IMG/VR virus record: IMGVR_UViG_3300027758_000025
Location: 1 to 26,753 of that record
Reading direction: 5' to 3' (one strand)
DNA from: a virus
Lineage: Duplodnaviria; Caudoviricetes
Length of the DNA stretch: 26,753 nt
Part shown: positions 4,767 through 26,295 of the stretch, piece by piece
Layout: every line of letters begins with the position of its first letter
How positions within the stretch are numbered: the first letter of the stretch is position 1
The notes under the pieces: generated by a model
Database searches by the model: none
The model's input: the letters and a program-made list of their open reading frames with translations, nothing else
Told to the model about the DNA's origin: nothing
Translations under genes and position numbers: made by a program

Positions 4767-5480
4767 TTAAAGATTGTTGCCCGATTCCAGCGCTCGAATG
4801 CGTTGGTCGATGTTGTCGACCATGGTTCCAACACCAATCGCGACGTATTGCTCGTGCGCTTCAGTAAGTAGATCTCTTGCCTTCTTCAAGGTTTCGATAT
4901 CACCTATCGAGGCGGCATGTGGCTTACCTTTGTCATTTCGAAGCAAATGCAAACCAGCAAACTTGAACCATTTTGCGGTCAACTTTTCGTTGATACTCCA
5001 CTCACTGCGAACCTTCTCAAATACTTGAGAAAAGTACGGTTCAATAGCGTGACCTTTCTCAGCCATGCGATCGGCCCAAGCAAGAACTTCATCTGCACAG
5101 AAAGTCGCAAAATCTCGCTTAAATCGTTCAGGAGTATCAAGGCCGCGCTCGATAGCAATACCACACCATTCAATGGCAGTATCAAGGTCTTCGATATCGA
5201 ACAACCAAATCACCATTTGGGCGAAAAGCGGGTTATCAAACTGATCTCCACCTTCTAGGTAAGCTTCGACCGCTTCACGATATTTAGGGACAAGCACTTC
5301 ACGTTTGTACTCGACTTTTTCATCGGTTCGGTTGTAGTTTTTCAAAACCTTCAAGTCGGTCTCTAACTCTGCCAACAACAAGTGCAAACTGTTTGGATTA
5401 GCGACAGCGTCACCACGTTGCTGCAGGTATCGCTGCTCTTCAATAATTTGCTGACGAGCTTTTGCTAATGGGCTTGCCAT
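4767..5480 (-). CDS. gpM: terminase small (endonuclease) subunit
   Basis: IWLFDIEDL...WCGIAIERGL.TPERFKR motif; follows the capsid gene. Confidence 0.9.
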   Translation of the reverse strand: MASPLAKARQQIIEEQRYLQQRGDAVANPNSLHLLLAELETDLKVLKNYNRTDEKVEYKREVLVPKYREAVEAYLEGGDQFDNPLFAQMVIWLFDIEDLDTAIEWCGIAIERGLDTPERFKRDFATFCADEVLAWADRMAEKGHAIEPYFSQVFEKVRSEWSINEKLTAKWFKFAGLHLLRNDKGKPHAASIGDIETLKKARDLLTEAHEQYVAIGVGTMVDNIDQRIRALESGNNL

Positions 5481-5483
5481 ACG

Positions 5484-6491
5484 TTACCCCTGCGCAGATT
5501 CAACAACTTCTACAGCTTCGATCGCTGCGAACTTGTTTAAGTTGCCAATCGCGTAGCCTTCCATGCGAATGTGGTTTGACTCAAAACGAAGCTCATCGTC
5601 GTTGTTCTTCTGGCGTCGCTGCTGTGTGCCTTCTTGCGTTAGTACTTGTAGGTTTTTCAGGTTAGTTACCCAAATACCATAAGGTGGGAAAAATGGCGGA
5701 ACGTACGCTTTCTTACCTGCAATGGTCTTAGCTAGGGCTTGAGCAGCTTTGTGTTCCGTTGGCGTATTCGCTGATTCAAGCAAGCGATGTTGCTCAGCCG
5801 CAACCAAACCGCTACCAAGCACCATAACTAGGTCAGGATCCTGACGATGTTCAGGCGCAATGGTTGTATTAATAAGGTCTTGGCCAAGTGAATCTAGGTT
5901 TTTATATGAGCCCGCCGTTTGTCCCGTTGGGTCTAACTTCGCTGAAGGAAGCACTTGTGAGGCTTTCTTCTCTTTGGCGATTTGAATCCAGCCCTTATTA
6001 ACGTCTTCACCCATCGGATTATTTTCTGGGTCTGTCGGTGTTGCGACTGATTTGCCATTGAAACCAACGCGAAGAATATCCAATGCAAAAATGCGCGCTA
6101 TCGCATTTTTCATTAGTTTTAGCCATTCGCCTTTCTTGCCCGAGTTCGCCCATACAGTCATCGTTTCCCATAAGATATGAGCACCAGAATCCGTTTTGTA
6201 TAACTGGTAGGTGTTGCCGCTTTGAGTCATTTCACGGGAGAAACGTCCCGAGCTTGTTCGACCTGTCGACAGGCCATCACCACCGACATCAATCACTTGA
6301 CCTTGGATTTGTGGCACAGTGAGCAAAGAGATCATGCCCAAAAATTCATGAGACTCTAAGATGGCTTGGCGCAAAGCGGTTTGCATTGGTGGCGTGATGT
6401 TGAACATGCCATAAGGAGCACCACACCCTGCTTCTTGGGCTACGGCTAAGCTGAACTCAGCTAGATATTCAGTTGAAACTGCATTTAACAT
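5484..6491 (-). CDS. gpN: major capsid protein, P2 family
   Basis: ALDILRVGFNG, NPMGEDVNKGW, VPPFFP and NLQVLTQ motifs; TAATG overlap with gpO. Confidence 0.95.
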   Translation of the reverse strand: MLNAVSTEYLAEFSLAVAQEAGCGAPYGMFNITPPMQTALRQAILESHEFLGMISLLTVPQIQGQVIDVGGDGLSTGRTSSGRFSREMTQSGNTYQLYKTDSGAHILWETMTVWANSGKKGEWLKLMKNAIARIFALDILRVGFNGKSVATPTDPENNPMGEDVNKGWIQIAKEKKASQVLPSAKLDPTGQTAGSYKNLDSLGQDLINTTIAPEHRQDPDLVMVLGSGLVAAEQHRLLESANTPTEHKAAQALAKTIAGKKAYVPPFFPPYGIWVTNLKNLQVLTQEGTQQRRQKNNDDELRFESNHIRMEGYAIGNLNKFAAIEAVEVVESAQG

Positions 6492-10459: not shown

Positions 10460-10754
10460 ACCACTTCAAAACAGATCATCCAGACACCAAAACGATCTTC
10501 CAAAATTACGACCAAAAACACAACAACCTTTTATATTCAACAACTTACAACCCAGAACCAGATCAATTGTGATCGTCAAAATTTCAATTCTCTTCAATTT
10601 TCTTCACACAACGAAATTCTGATAAGCACTCTATAGGAGCCTCTACGAAGTATTTCAGGATGGTAGACCCTTTATAGCAAAAGGGCTAAGACCATGCTTG
10701 CGGACTTCCCTAGTCCCCAAATTTCGTCATTTGAAAAGTGCGAAAAAACTGATC

Positions 10755-10795
10755 GTTTTAGCGCGCAGGCGGGTGAGGAGGAGTGCGATTTCGGT
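10755..10795. other. putative cos (cohesive-end) site
   Basis: G-rich tract GCGCGCAGGCGGGTGAGGAGGAGTGCG in non-coding DNA downstream of Q, where P2/186 have cos; resembles their GGCG.GGCGGGG.. ends. Exact cut positions not determined. Confidence 0.55.
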
Positions 10796-11015
10796 CATGT
10801 TTTCCCAACTTTACTTGATGTCTGTAATTCGTTGATGACTATTCCCCCTTCAGAACATGAATCGTTATATTTGGCATTAAAAAATGCCAAGGATGTCACT
10901 AACAGGCCTTACCTTATCTGTTACCTTCCGCAACTAACTCGGTCTATTCGGAACTTGGTTGCGCTAAGACCAGTTACTAAAGCAACGGTAATAACGATTA
11001 TGTGGAGAATTAAAA

Positions 11016-12029
11016 ATGTGTTGCTATACAAATAACGCTTTGTTGGATTACAAATCTTGGTGCACTTTGTATGAACTGAATAATAATATCTATAAGAAGG
11101 ATCACAAAGATATTGTAGATGCTACATACAGCAAGCATCAGGAGTGGTGGAAAGGTACCATTCAAGTGTTCTTTAACTTAAGAAACTTAAGCACGATTGG
11201 GGTTCAAAGTATCGACTCAGCGAAAAAAAGAACCTCCTATGATTCTGATAAAGAAGATAGGTTTTCTATCTTGTACAACGCTTTCGGCTCTAACCCTGCC
11301 ATATATGACACTTTATCACGTAGCATTGGGTACAACTCTTTGTTATTTGCCGAAGCATCTTTTGCTAAAGAAAATAACACTTCGTCAAGTGAAATTACAT
11401 TGACAGAGAGGCTCTTAAATATGATCGGCACCGCAGGAGCTGTGGTAGCTAAAAATTATGAGAGCAGCAACGCAAACAAAGAACACTTCTCTATATCCAA
11501 AATAGACTTCCAAACAAAAAACCGAGAGAAACATATCGGTGCAGATTTTGCTTTAATAATAGAGTCTCGAGATTGCAACGGTTTGCCAAAGTTTACACCT
11601 ATCATATTCCAAGCAAAAATGGCTCGAAATAGCGAAGCAAATATTAGCTACAGAAGTAAAAAAAGCGAAGAATCACAGTTCGAAACACTTTGCAAGCAAA
11701 ATAATGGATACTATATTTTTTATCCTAGTGGAGATGATATGGAGACTTTACCTTCAGTAAAAAGCGTGAAGAAAATCGATCCTATGGAACGACGTACTAG
11801 TACAGTAAATGATGTGATAGCTTTGTCTACGCTATATTTAGATATCGTGAGCAATACATCTGATAATTACCAATGTTATAACAATAGAAACGCTATGCTA
11901 GAGAGCATTTACACTCCGTTGGTCGAAGGAGATATTAGTAGTTTGCTTGTGATTTCTGAAGATGAAAACTCGAAAACTATATGGCAAAAAATCATTGATT
12001 CGATGTATATCGAGCCGAGATTGAGCTAA
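11016..12029 (+). CDS. accessory protein, putative PD-(D/E)xK nuclease fold; candidate defence gene
   Basis: GGAG RBS, AT-rich. SEITLTE...REKHIGADFALII...IIFQAK motif pattern; sits in the A-to-Q cargo slot. Confidence 0.65.
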   Translation: MCCYTNNALLDYKSWCTLYELNNNIYKKDHKDIVDATYSKHQEWWKGTIQVFFNLRNLSTIGVQSIDSAKKRTSYDSDKEDRFSILYNAFGSNPAIYDTLSRSIGYNSLLFAEASFAKENNTSSSEITLTERLLNMIGTAGAVVAKNYESSNANKEHFSISKIDFQTKNREKHIGADFALIIESRDCNGLPKFTPIIFQAKMARNSEANISYRSKKSEESQFETLCKQNNGYYIFYPSGDDMETLPSVKSVKKIDPMERRTSTVNDVIALSTLYLDIVSNTSDNYQCYNNRNAMLESIYTPLVEGDISSLLVISEDENSKTIWQKIIDSMYIEPRLS

Positions 12030-18956: not shown

Positions 18957-19625
18957 ATGGATAGTCAACAGCAGATATCAATTTTTGAGTACCTAAAAGG
19001 TGAGAATTTTACTCAAACCTTGAAGGAGTCTCTGGGTTTATCCACATTTGCAGAGCTCGCAGATGTGACGAACGTAAGCCGTCAGACAATTAGCACTTGG
19101 AATGCCCACAACAGGAACTCACACGAGTTGGTTGTTCGTATTCATTTGAGGACAGGAATCCCCGTTCATGAATTAATTCTTCCGAAGGGCTACCCTCTAA
19201 CGGATCTCCATCATTCATTCTGGAACGACAAAAGGACTGACGAGGTTGTAACTGGTCCATCCAGCCCAGAACTATTGAATCCTCAACTCTCTGTAGTGGT
19301 GGTTAAGAGCTTTTGCCTCTCAAATGGTCAACTTATTCCAACTGGAGAGATGCCATATGCAGAGCGCATGTTTAACTCATGGGATTTAGTTGCAGCTAAT
19401 ACTGTAGAGATAGAAACCAACGAAGGTCGTTTTCTAGTAGACAAGAGACAGAATGATGCGGTTAGTGGGGATTATCTGATCGATATGAATGGACGACTTT
19501 CCATCAACCATATCCAGCGATTGCCAACTAAACTAGCGGTGGTATTTGGTAATTCGACAGTTGAAGTATCAGAAGAAGTTATAAAAGTTATCGGCCGCGT
19601 TGCTGTTGTATTGGAGAAAGTTTAG
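18957..19625 (+). CDS. cI: CI immunity repressor (186/HP1-type)
   Basis: N-terminal HTH (ELADVTNVSRQTISTW); C-terminal domain with AVSGDYLIDMNG.LS...IQRLP and VIGRV. Confidence 0.92.
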   Translation: MDSQQQISIFEYLKGENFTQTLKESLGLSTFAELADVTNVSRQTISTWNAHNRNSHELVVRIHLRTGIPVHELILPKGYPLTDLHHSFWNDKRTDEVVTGPSSPELLNPQLSVVVVKSFCLSNGQLIPTGEMPYAERMFNSWDLVAANTVEIETNEGRFLVDKRQNDAVSGDYLIDMNGRLSINHIQRLPTKLAVVFGNSTVEVSEEVIKVIGRVAVVLEKV

Positions 19626-20542
19626 TGGAATTCCACGCATTAAGAGCGCTACAAGGTGATGCATTCATAGTCAACGATGGTGATACGAGCATCCTTATTG
19701 ATGGCGGTATGCCATCGACCTATGGCCAAATTGCAGGCTGGCTTGATGAGCATACGATAAGTGCAGTATTTATCACACATGTCGACTATGATCATTTAGG
19801 TGGGCTATTCAACTGGTTCACCGACCAAAGCTCAGACCTTTCATCATGTACGTTTTTTATGAATCACCCTGAGTTTCCATGTGAGTATCAGGGTGAAACT
19901 GTTGGCTTCAAACATGGTCATAGCTTAAAAGACCTTTTAACCATGAGAGATCAATACTTCCACAAGTTAATTACGAACCAAGAACTCGAGTATGGCAACA
20001 TAAAAATCCTCGCTTTGTCACCAGACGAAAACGTAGTCGAGATGCTTTATGAAGACTGGGGAAATAACATCATCTATAACGATGGTGTATTAAAGTATAA
20101 AAAAGTCCAAACTCAGTCGGACGATATCATCAACAAATCTTCATTAATCCTACTAGTGTCATGTAACGATGTCAGAGTGTTGATGCTTGGCGATTCGCAT
20201 TGTGACGTCGCATCTGCAAGCCTGAGAAACCAAGGCTATTCTAGAGACAATCCCTTAAAACTGGATATGGTGAAACTATCCCACCACGGTTCACAACACA
20301 ACACAAGTACCGATTTACTTCACCTAATAGATTGTGAAAACTTCTACATATCCACGAATGGCGGAAGATATGATCATCCACATGAAAAGACCATCTTACT
20401 TCTGCAGCAGCGAGCTGCAGAACTTGGCACACATTTCAACATTTTCCTCAATTATGAAATAACACTAGACATACAAAATAAATGTAACTTCTCTCTCGAA
20501 AACTTGAAGTTCATAGAACAATGTTCCGTGGAGTTTAAGTGA
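19625..20542 (+). CDS. MBL-fold metallohydrolase (ComEC/Avs1a-like), putative nuclease effector
   Basis: GDAF, LIDGG, THVDYDHLGG (HxDxDH), LGDS, KLSHHGS and HPH motifs; TAGTG overlap with the cI stop. Confidence 0.9.
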   Translation: MEFHALRALQGDAFIVNDGDTSILIDGGMPSTYGQIAGWLDEHTISAVFITHVDYDHLGGLFNWFTDQSSDLSSCTFFMNHPEFPCEYQGETVGFKHGHSLKDLLTMRDQYFHKLITNQELEYGNIKILALSPDENVVEMLYEDWGNNIIYNDGVLKYKKVQTQSDDIINKSSLILLVSCNDVRVLMLGDSHCDVASASLRNQGYSRDNPLKLDMVKLSHHGSQHNTSTDLLHLIDCENFYISTNGGRYDHPHEKTILLLQQRAAELGTHFNIFLNYEITLDIQNKCNFSLENLKFIEQCSVEFK

Positions 20543-22026
20543 GCATGCTTTATCACAACCCAGAAAAGCTTCACGGAAAGATATACCAAGATGAACAGTG
20601 CATTGGAAGTTGCGTACCATTTGTTTCTCAACAACGAGCATTTGCGATAACATGTCATCACGTTCTTTTTGAACAACGGACACGAGAGCAATTAGATCTC
20701 GAAAGCTTAACTGTTGCAATAGATTCAAAAAGATATAGATTACTAAAGGTAGTTACAGCACATGAGGTATCTTCTGAAAGCGACGTACTAATTGTTGAGT
20801 TATCTATCTCTAATACCGATCAGTTGAGAGGCTTTGCTGATATTGTTTTGTCTACGAAAGTTGATGCGGCAAGTGTCGTCGAACAAAATCATGGTCTCAT
20901 CGTTTGCCACCCCCACGAACATCAAATAGCAACGGTTCAACTTGCCTCACAAGCTAGAAATTGTGGGAACTTCAATATTGAAAGCACAGTCGAAAAAGGA
21001 ACGTTTTACAATCTTGGCAAAGCTAGGGGCGGAGCGAAAGAGTATGCTGGAGTCTCTGGATCCGGGTTATTTATGTATCTTGGTGAAAAAACTTATCTTC
21101 TCGCGTTACTTGCCAAGCTACCAAACAGCTCAATTACTGAAACAGTCGTTCTTAAACGACTGGACTCGATAGCTACAATGTTTGCAGAATCTCAGCTGTT
21201 TTTCGACATTATAAATCCAACGCAGAAACGAACAGAAAATCCAAAAGCCCCCTTAAAAGACGTATGCTTTGTAAACTATACAGAGCGTTCAAAAGACTAT
21301 TATTGTGAAAGGGCTTGTGATTCAGAATTCAACGCAAACCTTGACGATAACATGAATACTTGGCTATATGGTGACTCCGGAACAGGAAAAACGGCACTAT
21401 TAACGCGAACAATGCGTGAGCGAAATGTAAGCCATATTGCCTGTGATTTAGAGCCTGTAACAATCGAATCCAGCGATAGTATCTTCCAAGGTATAATTGA
21501 TGATATAACCCAATTTGTTGAAATCGACGATAGACCAGCAAGTTTAGATGTTAAATCAATCTGCGAATTCTTGCAAAAATGTAAACTCAAAGATGATACT
21601 GTCATAACTATTGATGAAATGAGTTGTTCATCACCAGAAATCATCAAGGCGTTTTGTCAGAAAACTATGAATTTAGTGAGACACTACCAAAAGCTTGAAC
21701 CAAGTAAGAATATTATTTTTGTAATATCAAGTATATTTAATCCCAAACAGCATGGGTGTAGTCCAGGTAAACTAATTGAGTCATTCGAACTGATATGCTT
21801 GAATGACTGGTCTGATGATATTGAAAAATTGTTTAATACACAAAATACTGCTTTGGGCAGCATGATAGAGCAAGACGGTAAACGTATTATCTTAGATAAA
21901 TGCGAGAATCTGCCAAGACTCTTAACTAAAATGGTTCAAAAAATATATAGAAGTGAAGATTTTTCATTAACGTCCGTTTCTAAAATGGTTGATCGAGTAA
22001 TTAGTGAGTATAAAGAGTATGAATGA
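20539..22026 (+). CDS. trypsin-like serine protease fused to a STAND/AAA-like P-loop ATPase
   Basis: Triad motifs ITCHHVL, SDVLIVEL, AGVSGSGL; then YYCER..D, Walker A GDSGTGKT, Walker B VITIDE, and NLPRLL. GTGA overlap with the MBL gene. Confidence 0.85.
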   Translation: MSMLYHNPEKLHGKIYQDEQCIGSCVPFVSQQRAFAITCHHVLFEQRTREQLDLESLTVAIDSKRYRLLKVVTAHEVSSESDVLIVELSISNTDQLRGFADIVLSTKVDAASVVEQNHGLIVCHPHEHQIATVQLASQARNCGNFNIESTVEKGTFYNLGKARGGAKEYAGVSGSGLFMYLGEKTYLLALLAKLPNSSITETVVLKRLDSIATMFAESQLFFDIINPTQKRTENPKAPLKDVCFVNYTERSKDYYCERACDSEFNANLDDNMNTWLYGDSGTGKTALLTRTMRERNVSHIACDLEPVTIESSDSIFQGIIDDITQFVEIDDRPASLDVKSICEFLQKCKLKDDTVITIDEMSCSSPEIIKAFCQKTMNLVRHYQKLEPSKNIIFVISSIFNPKQHGCSPGKLIESFELICLNDWSDDIEKLFNTQNTALGSMIEQDGKRIILDKCENLPRLLTKMVQKIYRSEDFSLTSVSKMVDRVISEYKEYE

Positions 22027-24595
22027 TAAGGTTTTAAAAAACTACACAACTATACCGCCACACCTCTATGTAGAACGATCTGCGGATAAACAGTTAAAAT
22101 ACATAATTGAAGACATGCAACGTCCCGGCTATGTGTTAGTAGCACGTCAAATGGGTAAAACCAATCTTCTATTCAATGCTAGACGAAATTTAGAGTCAAA
22201 TTCTAGAAAATTTGTTTATATAGACTTATCAAATAACTTCTCTACAGAGAGAGAGTGCTATGAGTTTATTATAGGTTCGATTTTAGATGTATTAGATGAT
22301 GAACTATGGGAAATTAGAGATGAAATCGACAAAATATCAATCAGGACAATAACTGACCATGTTTTTTATACAAAGTCATTACTAAAAATACTTCGTCATC
22401 TAAATAGAGACCTTGTTATTATTTTAGATGAAATAGATGCACTTAGAACATCCGAATATTCCGATAACATCTTCGCTGTTATTAGAAGTAATTACTTTGC
22501 ACGCTCTAACTTCCCTGAATTAGAGAAGTTAACTTATATTCTTTCTGGCGTAATAGAGCCAAAAGATTTAATTAAAGATAGAAACAAGTCTCCTTTCAAT
22601 ATTGGCGAAAAGATATACTTGGATGACTTCTCTCGAGAAGAGTTTGGTGATTTTATCTCAAAAAGCAAACTAGAGCTAAGTTCGCACCTCATTGAACATA
22701 TCTTTTCATGGACAAACGGAAACCCTAGATTAACTTTTGACATCTGCTCTGATGTAGAAACTATTTTAAATGAAAAAGAATCAATTAAAAAAGAAGACAT
22801 TGACAACCTAATTAAGAAAAAGTATTTAACCTCATTTGATATCGCTCCAATAGACCATATTAGAGAATTGGTAACAGATGAAAAAGAGATACAAAAAGCT
22901 GTTATACAACTACATTCTAACAATGAAAAAAATGAAATTTCAGATAAAATAAAGAGTAAACTATATCTTTATGGAATAATATCTTCAAGCGACGAGCATG
23001 GTGAGGTTAGAATAAAAAACAAAATAATTGAAGAATCCTTGACTTTATCATGGCTAAAATCTCTATCTGAAGATAGAAAATCAATAATAGATAAAGCCGT
23101 AAGTTTGATAGAGAAATCTCGTGACTATCATCAGGCTATAGAACTACTTAATTCAGTTATAGAGAAAGACAAAACCGAAGACAAGGGTAACCTATCTATC
23201 CCTCTCTTTTATCTTGGCTATGCCGAGCACAGTATAGGCCAATTTGAAAAGTCGAACTTGCATCTATTAGAAAAACCTGTTTCGAAAAATGTATCGCCAA
23301 TATTACATTTTAAAGCTAAGTTTATGGTTGGTCTTAACTTCTACAATCTAAATAATACCGAACTTGGAAATCAAGCATTACAAGATGTTTTAGACAACTA
23401 CCCGAACACAATTACTTGGGCTAATGCAGCTATAAATTTAGCAATACACAATGACAATGATGAAAAGTATCTTGATATTCTGAAAAGTATTATCGATGAT
23501 GACAAAAATATTCATGCAGAAACTGAATCTGAATCTGAATCTGAAGTACAACATCATATTAAGATAATTAAGTCTTATGCTTACAATCAATTAGCAACTA
23601 AAAGCAAGGATTCTAGCGAAAAACTAGACTATATTGAAAAAGCAATTAAGGTAAACATCATAGAGCATGTTCCATACTTCATGTTATTAAGGGGAGTAAC
23701 TCTAGGTATAGATAAGTCAAAAACTTCTCTTGAAATCATAGATTTCGTATTAGATAACCAAATAAACTTCAATACATTAAAAACACCGAAGTCTAATATT
23801 GATTACAACTACGCGCTCCACGCTCAAATTGTTGCATATTGCTTTGAGATGTCAAAAAATAAATTCAGAGAAGTATTAGACTATTCAGTTAATGACCTAA
23901 ATTTAAAAGAAGGCGATTTCATATACGATGTCGGAAATTACATCGATGAAGACTTTTTACGAGCAGAACTTTATCACTTCTACTTTAAAAACATTCCTAC
24001 CTTTGCAGAAAGTAAGCTTTATCGCGCATATATATATAGTGCGTTAGAATATAGCAAAAGATATGAAACGTATTTTTCTGATTATATGAAATCAATGTTG
24101 CATAATGAAACATTGGAGAGTGCAGATATAGCACCACTTTCACTACTATATAAAAGTAGAATCGAAACAGAAAACTCTGAACTGATAAAGCTTGATGATT
24201 ATTTCGATGAATTAACATCACTATCATTAAACTTTAGAGGTAGTGACATTTATGACTCTGCAGTATTATGTTATTGGATTTCTGAATATTATCACCATGT
24301 AGGTAAATTTGGACACTCACAAATATTTGGAAAAGAAGTATTACAAAGGCTAGACACAAAAGATAAAGAAAGGAATATCATTACCGAAGAGGGAGAGAAA
24401 AGTATTAGGACTCGAGTAAGAGCATTACTCGATTTTCGTAAGAGTACTAATAAAACGAAACCTATTAGGAAAACTTACGACTTCGGTAGAAACGAAAAAG
24501 TGACTGTACGTTATAATGATGGCAGTGAAAAGACTGACAAATTCAAAAAGCTTCGGCAAGATATAGAATCTGGTCAATGCACGATTTTGAATTAA
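22019..24595 (+). CDS. STAND/AAA_35-like ATPase with TPR-like helical repeats, putative sensor
   Basis: LYVERSAD, Walker A VARQMGKT, Walker B IILDEID, SPFNIG, WTNGNPRLT (GxP); then TPR-like helices (LFYLGYAEHSIGQFEKS; FMVGLNFYNL...ALQDVLDNYP). Start ATG 22019 or GTG 22004. Confidence 0.85.
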   Translation: MNDKVLKNYTTIPPHLYVERSADKQLKYIIEDMQRPGYVLVARQMGKTNLLFNARRNLESNSRKFVYIDLSNNFSTERECYEFIIGSILDVLDDELWEIRDEIDKISIRTITDHVFYTKSLLKILRHLNRDLVIILDEIDALRTSEYSDNIFAVIRSNYFARSNFPELEKLTYILSGVIEPKDLIKDRNKSPFNIGEKIYLDDFSREEFGDFISKSKLELSSHLIEHIFSWTNGNPRLTFDICSDVETILNEKESIKKEDIDNLIKKKYLTSFDIAPIDHIRELVTDEKEIQKAVIQLHSNNEKNEISDKIKSKLYLYGIISSSDEHGEVRIKNKIIEESLTLSWLKSLSEDRKSIIDKAVSLIEKSRDYHQAIELLNSVIEKDKTEDKGNLSIPLFYLGYAEHSIGQFEKSNLHLLEKPVSKNVSPILHFKAKFMVGLNFYNLNNTELGNQALQDVLDNYPNTITWANAAINLAIHNDNDEKYLDILKSIIDDDKNIHAETESESESEVQHHIKIIKSYAYNQLATKSKDSSEKLDYIEKAIKVNIIEHVPYFMLLRGVTLGIDKSKTSLEIIDFVLDNQINFNTLKTPKSNIDYNYALHAQIVAYCFEMSKNKFREVLDYSVNDLNLKEGDFIYDVGNYIDEDFLRAELYHFYFKNIPTFAESKLYRAYIYSALEYSKRYETYFSDYMKSMLHNETLESADIAPLSLLYKSRIETENSELIKLDDYFDELTSLSLNFRGSDIYDSAVLCYWISEYYHHVGKFGHSQIFGKEVLQRLDTKDKERNIITEEGEKSIRTRVRALLDFRKSTNKTKPIRKTYDFGRNEKVTVRYNDGSEKTDKFKKLRQDIESGQCTILN
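23523..23545 (+). repeat. in-frame hexanucleotide tandem repeat (CTGAAT) x3.8
   Basis: CTGAATCTGAATCTGAATCTGAA, within the codons for TESESESE. Confidence 0.85.
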
Positions 24596-24609: not shown

Positions 24610-25632
24610 ATGACCATCAGAAAACTGAAAAATGGGACTCAAAAACCATGGTTATGTGAGTGCTATCCGCATGGCCGAAATGGTAAACGCATCCGCAAAC
24701 GCTTTGCCACTAAAGGCGAAGCGAATGCCTTTGAGATCCACATGATGAAAGAGGTGGACGACAAGCCTTGGCTTGGAGCAAAGCCAGATCACCGTCGCCT
24801 TTCTGACTTGGTAGCACTTTGGTTTAAGTTGCATGGCAAGAATCTAAAATCAGGTGATCATTCTCGCTTACGCTTAGAAATCATGGTTGCCGATCTCGAT
24901 AATCCAATCGCTGCTCATCTAAACTCCCAACAACTGGCGTTGTACAGAGCAAACCGCTCGAACAAAGGGCGAGGCAAACAACACAAGGAGTTGGCGATCG
25001 CCTCAAAGAATACAGACTTCGGCTTGCTGAAATCTGTGTTCAACCGATTGATAAAACTTGGTGAATGGAAACTACCTAATCCGGTGAACGGTATTGATGC
25101 CATCAAAAAGCCACAAACTGAATTGGCGTTCTTATCCGATCAGGAAATTCTGCATTTATTCGAAGTGGCAAAGCAAAGCCCAGTTGGTGACGAGATAATT
25201 AAGATATACAAGATTTGTTTATCCACAGGGGCACGAGTCAGAGAAGCGATATTTCTAAAAGGCTCTAACTTAACGAAGTACCGTATCACGTTTAGCAACA
25301 CCAAAGGCAAACGCAACCGAACGATTCCCATTTCGCAAGAGTTATATAACGAGATTTATAAGCCAACCAATGATCGCCTTTTTACTTGCAGTTACAGAGT
25401 TGTGTATAAATGGATTAAGATAGCATTACCACACTTACCGGAAGGTCAAGCAACACACGTTCTGCGCCATACCTTCGCAAGTCACTTTATGACGAATCGC
25501 GGCAATATCCTTGTATTAAAGGATATCCTCGGTCATAAGATGATTGACCACACTATGATTTACGCCCATTTCTCACCAAATCATTTGAGCGATGCGGTGC
25601 ACCTCAACCCTCTCGCAAACCTCAATATCTAG
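24610..25632 (+). CDS. int: tyrosine integrase (HP1/186 family)
   Basis: PWLCECYP.GR.GKR.RKRFATKGEA arm-binding domain; catalytic TGAR, TKG, HVLRH, LGH and IYAH. Confidence 0.97.
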   Translation: MTIRKLKNGTQKPWLCECYPHGRNGKRIRKRFATKGEANAFEIHMMKEVDDKPWLGAKPDHRRLSDLVALWFKLHGKNLKSGDHSRLRLEIMVADLDNPIAAHLNSQQLALYRANRSNKGRGKQHKELAIASKNTDFGLLKSVFNRLIKLGEWKLPNPVNGIDAIKKPQTELAFLSDQEILHLFEVAKQSPVGDEIIKIYKICLSTGARVREAIFLKGSNLTKYRITFSNTKGKRNRTIPISQELYNEIYKPTNDRLFTCSYRVVYKWIKIALPHLPEGQATHVLRHTFASHFMTNRGNILVLKDILGHKMIDHTMIYAHFSPNHLSDAVHLNPLANLNI

Positions 25633-25869: not shown

Positions 25870-26205
25870 TTACTCCGCGTCACCTTCAACACGAGCTGCC
25901 GCTTCTTTGATTAGAGGCTGAAGTTCACCTTTTTGGAACATTTCCAAAATGATGTCACAACCACCGATCAACTCACCTTCAATCCAAAGCTGTGGGAATG
26001 TTGGCCATTGAGCGTACTTTGGTAGCTCAGCACGGATGTCTGGGTTTTGTAGAATGTCTACGTAAGCGAACTTCTCACCACAAGCCATTAGCGCTTGTGC
26101 TGCTTGAGAAGAGAAACCACAGCTAGGTAGTTTCGGTGATCCTTTCATGTACAGCAGGATTGAGTTTTCAGAAATCTGCTGTTTGATTTTATCGATAGTT
26201 TCCAT
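25870..26205 (-). CDS. grxD: monothiol glutaredoxin Grx4 (host)
   Basis: MKGSPKLPSCGFS active site, WPTFPQLW, GGCDI; ATG 26205 with GAGG RBS. Confidence 0.97.
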   Translation of the reverse strand: METIDKIKQQISENSILLYMKGSPKLPSCGFSSQAAQALMACGEKFAYVDILQNPDIRAELPKYAQWPTFPQLWIEGELIGGCDIILEMFQKGELQPLIKEAAARVEGDAE

Positions 26206-26295
26206 CGCTTCCTCATTCATGGATGTGAACTTTAATTATTGCCACATTCTACTCAATAAACACAGAATAAAAACCATATAATTAGTAAGCTTTTG

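What the first reader, a model, noticed from the sequence alone, without database searches (positions are those of the whole stretch)
19625..24595. Candidate new anti-phage system: MBL nuclease + protease-STAND + STAND-TPR
Seen: three overlapping, AT-rich, intact genes inserted between cI and int. They encode an MBL hydrolase with a full metal motif set, a trypsin-like protease (H/D/S triad) fused to a P-loop ATPase, and a second ATPase with about 500 aa of TPR-like helices. Known: AVAST type 1 (Avs1) pairs an MBL protein with a protease-STAND; Avs STAND-TPR proteins sense phage proteins; P2-like prophages carry defence cargo. Inference: a phage-triggered cascade (sensor, then ATPase oligomer, then protease, then MBL nuclease, causing abortive infection). 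I do not recognise this two-ATPase layout as a named system.
Basis: partly seen in the sequence, partly recalled or inferred. Interest (0 to 1): 0.93.

Follow-up and report, generated by a model that had tools for sequence, protein, structure and literature searches.

The report
Paired-ATPase trypsin-MBL phage defence cassette
A Vibrio prophage carries three intact genes: a known protease-activated DNA-cutting module attached to a widespread pair of related ATPases, which likely act as a separate phage sensor and effector carrier, predicted to work like paired immune receptors in animals and plants.

Summary
The three ORFs are real and intact, with the motifs described, and sit between cI and int of a Vibrio P2-like prophage. 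That slot holds defence-like genes in 14 of 23 related prophages scanned. The trypsin-MBL output is a published module: an oligomerised protease cuts an MBL pro-nuclease into a DNase. This exact layout is already listed, untested, as 'AAA_novel + STAND-TPR' (28 rows) in Evans et al. 2025, Table S2. A protease-ATPase plus ATPase-TPR layout also exists in CARD-NLR systems, so it is not unprecedented. What I add: the conserved core is the two ATPases, not the triplet. In 14 of 14 other loci an effector-ATPase gene abuts the STAND-TPR gene. Across the family the effector is swapped (purine nucleoside phosphorylase, hydrolase, Cap4/Mrr nuclease, phosphoesterase, caspase, nitrilase). The first ATPase ends at the C-terminus in 128 of 128 relatives; the STAND-TPR has no N-terminal effector in 120 of 120. 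The two NTPase domains are homologous. Best reading: a CARD-less sensor/helper STAND pair. The scan's earlier notes held no match. Verdict: new variant of a known kind.

The parts
19625..20542 (+). ORF1: MBL-fold (ComEC-like) predicted pro-nuclease, 305 aa; candidate gating residue V93 in the first insertion; second insertion shorter than in 340-360 aa relatives
   Evidence: Pfam Lactamase_B; PADLOC LmuA-MBL E 2e-60, RTasMBL 5e-38, Avs1a 4e-33; metal ligands invariant; V at 93 in 31 of 35, I in 2; profile hits ComEC structures
20539..21213 (+). ORF2 N-terminal trypsin-like serine protease (H41, D82, S173); no room for a CARD before it
   Evidence: PADLOC LmuA-protease E 7e-7; 8 of 9 protease-only relatives hit the LmuA protease model
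21244..22026 (+). ORF2 C-terminal P-loop ATPase (nucleotide-binding domain plus a short helical domain, no sensor), predicted helper/effector carrier; K284 Walker A, D359-E360 Walker B
   Evidence: ends at the protein's C-terminus in 128 of 128 relatives; homologous to the ORF3 NTPase, hhalign probability 97.3, E 2e-11
22004..23083 (+). ORF3 AAA_35 STAND-type NTPase module starting at the N-terminus (no effector); K52 Walker A, D142-E143 Walker B, GNPR motif
23084..24460 (+). ORF3 TPR-like helical region, predicted sensor; much more variable than the NTPase
   Evidence: column conservation 0.31-0.51 versus 0.57-0.89 in the NTPase
24461..24595 (+). ORF3 C-terminal GRN-motif knob resembling the C-terminal tail of Bacteroidota SecA (lead only)
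   Evidence: motif in 90 of 120 relatives; predicted-structure TM 0.57-0.65 to SecA clusters, under the tool's naming bar
18957..19625 (+). cI repressor, left flank; its stop overlaps the ORF1 start
   Evidence: Pfam Phage_CI_repr and Phage_CI_C; sequence
24610..25632 (+). Tyrosine integrase, right flank; closest named relatives are Vibrio Peduoviridae phages

Best explanation
This is a prophage-borne three-gene cassette whose core is a pair of homologous ATPases that likely form an anti-phage sensor/helper unit, predicted to switch on a trypsin protease that would cut the MBL pro-nuclease into a DNase. Shown: intact genes and motifs, conserved pairing, complementary domain layouts, effector swapping, hotspot position. 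Inferred steps: (1) the genes are read with cI from the lysogenic promoter; (2) the ORF3 TPR region binds a product of an invading phage and releases its NTPase; (3) active ORF3 nucleates a mixed oligomer with the sensor-less ORF2 ATPase through NTPase-NTPase contacts; (4) clustering activates the ORF2 trypsin domains; (5) they cut ORF1 after V93 and probably a second aliphatic residue near 149-150; (6) the MBL degrades DNA and the infected lysogen dies or arrests.
For: Pairing in 14 of 14 loci, genes overlapping or within 6 nt. ORF2-type ATPase never followed by a sensor, 128 of 128, Walker A intact in 127. ORF3 relatives are 814-873 aa with Walker A in the first 50 residues, 120 of 120. The two NTPase domains are homologous and their trees agree (Mantel rho 0.61, n=13, 0 of 2000 permutations). 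N-terminal domains are typical defence effectors. The cI-int slot has PADLOC hits in 14 of 23 related prophages. Trypsin-MBL chemistry and its need for oligomerisation are published for Avs2, Avs4 and Hachiman. CARD-NLR shows that a separate NLR-like protein can activate a protease-ATPase partner.
Against: No defence, expression or binding data exist for this family. PADLOC 2.0 has no model for ORF3 or the ORF2 ATPase. The ORF3 Walker A lacks the first glycine. The second gating insertion of this MBL is short (W145-N170 span of 25 residues versus 39-48 in longer relatives) and the first site has Val where the tested systems have Ile, so steps 5-6 may differ. Tree agreement is expected from simple co-inheritance of neighbours. 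AAA_35 relatives in cyanobacteria carry signalling domains such as CHASE2, PAS and GAF. No promoter beyond chance level was found.
Confidence: 0.58

Rival explanations
1. Guard/antitoxin model: ORF3 binds ORF2 constitutively and keeps it inactive; a phage protein displaces or destroys ORF3, and ORF2 then homo-oligomerises and activates the MBL. Still anti-phage, with the logic reversed.
For: ORF2 has the canonical Walker A/B and no sensor to inhibit itself, so it may need a brake in trans; strict pairing; in CARD-NLR, deleting part of the NLR-like protein made the system toxic.
Against: The ORF3 NTPase is the most conserved part of the system, with GKT and DE retained in 120 of 120, as expected of an active switch. 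Two loci carry a split ORF3 beside an intact effector-ATPase (L008, L048), which a pure antitoxin might not allow, though these may be sequence errors.
Confidence: 0.22
2. The cascade is real but its trigger is not an invading lytic phage: it senses a host stress (translation or secretion, via the SecA-tail-like knob), a satellite or plasmid, or serves lysis control as LypABC does.
For: LypABC is a co-opted two-ATPase system that controls lysis for gene transfer agents; SecA-tail resemblance; signalling-type AAA_35 relatives.
Against: The slot is filled in sister prophages by Lamassu, Menshen, type II RM and PD-Lambda-1 matches; every identified effector is of the defence type.
Confidence: 0.14
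3. ORF1-ORF2 and ORF3 are independent or decaying cargo placed together by chance.
For: GC differs between the halves; no functional data.
Against: 14 of 14 pairing across distant taxa; 28 tabulated triplets; intact frames and catalytic residues.
Confidence: 0.04

Closest known systems
'AAA_novel + STAND-TPR' sensor class of MBL-serine protease modules (Evans et al. 2025, PMC12642450, Table S2)
   Same: Same three-part architecture; 28 of about 2,690 rows, including Vibrio orthologues with ORF2 74% identical.
   Different: A table label only: not among the systems tested in their Table S1 and not discussed in the passages read. It covers only MBL-linked copies, not the other effectors.
Trypsin-MBL effector module (Tuck et al. 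PMC12799240; Evans et al.; Huang et al. 10.1101/2025.09.03.673762), as in Avs1/Avs2-MBL, Lamassu hydrolase-protease, Hachiman HamMAB
   Same: MBL gene directly upstream of an N-terminal trypsin fusion; catalytic residues intact; best profiles are the LmuA MBL and protease models.
   Different: The protease is fused to a sensor-less ATPase; the MBL is short, with Val at the first candidate site and a reduced second insertion.
CARD-NLR systems and LypABC (Wein et al. 10.1101/2023.05.28.542683; PMC13236601)
   Same: Protease-ATPase protein, separate ATPase-TPR protein and an exchangeable death effector.
   Different: No CARD in ORF2 and no 150-190 aa N-terminal domain in ORF3, which form the LypA-LypB contact. 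The ORF2 ATPase keeps Walker A/B, whereas LypA lacks them. Here the swapped part is the domain fused to the first ATPase, and it is usually not a protease. Sequence homology was not tested.
Single-chain Avs (antiviral STAND) families (Lee et al. 2026, PMC13581612)
   Same: Effector, NTPase and TPR sensor; the same pool of effectors.
   Different: Split over two proteins, each with its own NTPase; no fused form among the relatives examined. Their main supplementary tables could not be read, so ORF3 may belong to one of their clades or cloned clusters.
Paired NLRs of animals and plants (NAIP-NLRC4; sensor/helper NLRs)
   Same: Division of labour between a sensor without effector and a homologous NTPase that carries the effector (NAIP/NLRC4 hetero-complexes: abstract).
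   Different: Analogy only; the bacterial helper has no repeat domain at all, and no complex is shown.

Membership tests
Trypsin-MBL module | MBL gene immediately upstream of an N-terminal trypsin fusion | tested here: met
Trypsin-MBL module | Intact MBL metal ligands and protease triad | tested here: met
Trypsin-MBL module | Two gating insertions, each with a conserved Ile at the cut site | tested here: inconclusive
   V93 conserved (31 V, 2 I of 35); second insertion short, no invariant Ile; MBL not modelled
Trypsin-MBL module | Cleavage-dependent DNase activity | not testable with these tools
   needs biochemistry
AVAST type 1 (Avs1) | MBL above the NCBIfam Avs1a cut-off | tested here: not met
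   141 bits versus cut-off 420
AVAST type 1 / single-chain Avs | Protease, STAND and long sensor in one chain | tested here: not met
   ORF2 is 495 aa and ends after the ATPase; no Avs1b/Avs1c hit
Lamassu hydrolase-protease | LmuB (SMC-like ATPase) and LmuC present | tested here: not met
   no LmuB or LmuC hit among the three ORFs
CARD-NLR | N-terminal CARD (about 80 aa) on the protease | tested here: not met
   catalytic His at residue 41; strands from residue 13 in the model
CARD-NLR | About 150-190 aa helical N-terminal domain on the NLR-like protein | tested here: not met
   Walker A within the first 50 residues in 120 of 120
CARD-NLR | ATPase falls in the CARD-NLR clade | not tested
'AAA_novel + STAND-TPR' (Evans Table S2) | Orthology and same gene set as the tabulated rows | tested here: met
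   rows match P0002, P0005, P0009, P0011, P0018 by eye; these are 37-74% identical to ORF2
STAND NTPase (ORF3) | P-loop NTPase with helical-domain GxP motif and C-terminal repeats | tested here: met
   AAA_35, G239-N-P241-R242 invariant, TPR hits; STAND clade placement by tree was not done
Anti-phage system | Protection against phage | not testable with these tools
   context only

The most novel reading that the evidence does not exclude
A widespread bacterial sensor/helper STAND pair: an effector-less sensor nucleates a homologous, sensor-less helper ATPase into a mixed ring with no CARD adaptor, a bacterial counterpart of NAIP-NLRC4. The helper is a socket for at least eight effector types, and a SecA-tail-like knob on the sensor may tether it to the ribosome or secretion machinery to catch newly made phage proteins.
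Probability: 0.4. Interest if true: 0.82.

Novelty: new variant of a known kind. Interest (0 to 1): 0.6.

Why it matters
Characterised bacterial Avs receptors are single chains, and CARD-NLR uses a death-domain adaptor. A pair in which sensing and effector display sit on two homologous NTPases would give a tractable bacterial model of how paired NLRs work and might have arisen. The family is broad (733 ORF3 hits; Pseudomonadota and Bacteroidota among the named ones) and has no PADLOC 2.0 model. Because the trypsin-MBL output has a known readout (cleavage bands, DNA degradation), this copy is a convenient one in which to find the trigger. The cI-int slot of Vibrio P2-like prophages is also a ready source of further candidates.

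Tried and rejected
Complex prediction of the ORF3 NTPase region with the ORF2 ATPase: tool queue full, nothing folded; this is no evidence either way. Structure prediction of ORF3 and ORF1 and all fold searches: machine busy. Single-sequence PDB searches found nothing significant; profiles gave only generic Cdc6/ORC, TPR and ComEC hits. The viral-contig scan with ORF2 found none; the phage collection had no ORF3 match. In one search, four of five loci (L002-L005) were short Walker-A matches with no ORF3 relative in the locus and were dropped; two of their genomes also lacked ORF3. Promoter/terminator scan was at chance level. RNA run X20 had no contig over the cassette; this shows nothing, as the prophage is not shown to be in that sample. 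Pfam found no family for the ORF3 C-terminal knob. Motif search of 7 readable supplements of Lee et al. gave 0 hits, but the sequence tables are unreadable. The K139 paper read gave nothing on this slot. DefensePredictor passages showed no such pair. Rejected labels: Avs1, Lamassu, CARD-NLR membership (see tests); MBL as an antibiotic beta-lactamase (NCBIfam scores far under cut-offs). Scan notes: no look-alike by sequence; two unrelated STAND findings by words.
Full report
Observation. The window is a P2-like prophage: terminase, portal, capsid, tail sheath, replication protein A, cII, cox, cI and integrase. The integrase is 82% identical to that of Vibrio phage L9-1, a Peduoviridae member. 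Between cI and int lie three intact + strand ORFs at the coordinates given. GC falls in steps: phage core 44-47%, MBL and protease about 40.5%, ORF2 ATPase 34.9%, ORF3 31.6%. The step lies at the domain boundary inside ORF2, which fits (inference) a trypsin-MBL module joined to an ATPase pair. A single contig of run X2 covers the cassette with no differences, but may be the source sample. Run X4, another study, has a 668-nt contig inside ORF2 with 7 differences and a related prophage in which 4593 other letters lie between cI and int.

The slot. Among 26 viral contigs with a related integrase, the cox-int distance ranges from 1.3 to over 7 kb with varied cargo. I scanned 58 hand-picked cargo proteins from 23 of the 26 loci; 14 loci had PADLOC hits at E <= 1e-8, including complete Lamassu (L022) and Menshen (L025) sets, type II RM, PD-Lambda-1 and PDC-M03; 9 had none. 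A 2026 survey puts 8% of P2 defence systems between integrase and primase (PMC13586616, passages). The cI stop overlaps the ORF1 start, so expression in the lysogen with cI is likely (inference; not shown).

The output module is known. ORF1 scores best against the Lamassu MBL model (E 2e-60) and below the Avs1a cut-off (141 versus 420 bits). Of 9 relatives matched only through the protease, 8 hit the LmuA protease model. Tuck et al. (PMC12799240; part 1 of 6 and passages), Evans et al. (PMC12642450; parts 1-2 of 7, passages, Table S1 and searched rows of Table S2) and Huang et al. (10.1101/2025.09.03.673762; part 1 of 6) show that such MBLs are pro-nucleases cut at two insertions by the partner protease. 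Guo et al. (10.64898/2026.08.25.746987; part 1 of 5) report that the trypsin must tetramerise. In ORF1 the first candidate site is V93 (V in 31, I in 2 of 35 aligned, chosen from 69 hits), and the second insertion is short.

The architecture is catalogued. Evans Table S2 labels 28 rows 'AAA_novel + STAND-TPR'; I saw all 28. Thirteen are the clade of this cassette (Vibrio, Photobacterium, Shewanella, Enterovibrio). The rows fall in six separate blocks of the table, with MBLs of different lengths, suggesting (inference) repeated capture of trypsin-MBL by the same core. None is among the systems tested in Table S1. Their supplementary figures could not be read. In my searches, 9 of 17 non-self ORF2 homologues share an identical longest-contig length with an ORF3 and an MBL homologue, indirect evidence for the triplet.

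The conserved core is the ATPase pair. ORF3 has 733 hits among 7999 candidates scored; the best 120 are 814-873 aa, all with Walker A in the first 50 residues. I examined 14 distinct loci with an ORF3 relative (13 found through ORF3, 1 through ORF2). In all 14, the gene directly upstream ends in an ORF2-type ATPase and overlaps or abuts it; none has MBL or trypsin. Their N-terminal domains are alpha/beta-hydrolase (8; 5 by Pfam, 3 by motif), Cap4/Mrr-like nuclease (4; 3 by profile, 1 by likeness), nitrilase (1) and metallophosphoesterase (1). One is on a viral contig (L014). In a sample of Pseudomonadota-level relatives of G001, 4 of 401 genomes had ORF3. A whole-library profile search with ORF2 gave 416 representatives at E <= 0.001. 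Of the best 150, 138 have the ATPase and 128 have it in full; all 128 end within 7 residues of it, 127 keep a canonical Walker A. Single-linkage clusters of 121 N-termini, labelled from representatives only: purine nucleoside phosphorylase 40, hydrolase 27, trypsin about 28, Cap4/Mrr 10, phosphoesterase 5, caspase 2, SMEK 1, nitrilase 1, and others unlabelled or NACHT-like. The genomic neighbours of these representatives were not seen. The two NTPase domains are homologous over 210 columns (probability 97.3). The ORF2 model shows two confident domains on a flexible linker (pLDDT 89, pTM 0.53).

Mechanism. The layouts are complementary: ORF2 has effector and NTPase without sensor; ORF3 has NTPase and sensor without effector. 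The simplest reading is that ORF3 senses and then recruits ORF2 through NTPase contacts, clustering the protease, which activates the DNase (0.58). The guard model, with ORF3 as a brake, is the main rival (0.22). A non-phage trigger or co-opted role is possible (0.14). Overall I put an anti-phage role at about 0.85.

Comparison. CARD-NLR systems already combine a trypsin-ATPase, an ATPase-TPR and a swappable effector (Wein et al., passages; PMC13236601, section 9 and passages), so the two-ATPase layout is not without precedent. This cassette lacks both domains that make the CARD-NLR contact, and keeps Walker motifs that LypA lacks. It is not Avs1 or Lamassu. Lee et al. 2026 (parts 1-5 of 13) describe single-chain families in the text read, with no hit for 'two STAND', 'second STAND' or 'two-gene'; their main tables were unreadable, so ORF3 may be in them. 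Literature searches for a paired bacterial STAND system returned no description of this core; the library lacks most subscription papers. The STAND subdomain names and the SEC-C analogy are from my own knowledge.

Verdict. Real feature; known effector chemistry; architecture already listed but untested; the effector-swapping, CARD-less ATPase pair is the part worth following. New variant of a known kind, interest 0.6; novel case probability 0.4, interest 0.82.

Noticed in passing
window 24461-24595: The last ~40 residues of ORF3 form a conserved GRN-motif knob whose predicted structure matches the C-terminal tail of Bacteroidota SecA and part of a phage peptide deformylase cluster (TM 0.57-0.65, under the naming bar).
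   Followed up: partly
window 10694-11035 and 11016-12029 (+): Two overlapping ORFs (113 and 337 aa, the second 36% GC) between portal and ogr, near the classical P2 cargo slot, with no Pfam, NCBIfam, PADLOC or PHROG assignment: a second candidate defence unit.
   Followed up: partly
L015-L039, between cI and int: Hypervariable cargo slot in Vibrio P2-like prophages; several large ORFs had no PADLOC hit, e.g. L030:2854-6213 (1119 aa), L032:2733-6521 (1262 aa), L027:2573-5494 (973 aa), L025:403-2370 (655 aa).
   Followed up: partly
L026:2460-7770: Cargo with an MBL-like gene (5261-6241), response-regulator-like ORFs and a cytosine methyltransferase in the same slot.
   Followed up: no
L014:4460-8574: A hydrolase-effector version of the same ATPase pair on a viral contig, beside a repressor-like gene.
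   Followed up: partly
L009:1141-10026: Nitrilase-ATPase plus STAND-TPR pair lies in a defence cluster with SMEK/ABC-3C-like genes and PDC-S01.
   Followed up: no
L008:5989-8592 and L048:214-2756: The ORF3 relative is split into two frames while the effector-ATPase is intact; real decay or sequence error is not resolved.
   Followed up: no
P0222: An ORF2-type ATPase preceded by a NACHT-like NTPase domain instead of an enzyme effector.
   Followed up: no
window 25870-26220 (-): Host monothiol glutaredoxin-like gene downstream of int, marking the chromosome side of the integration site.
   Followed up: no
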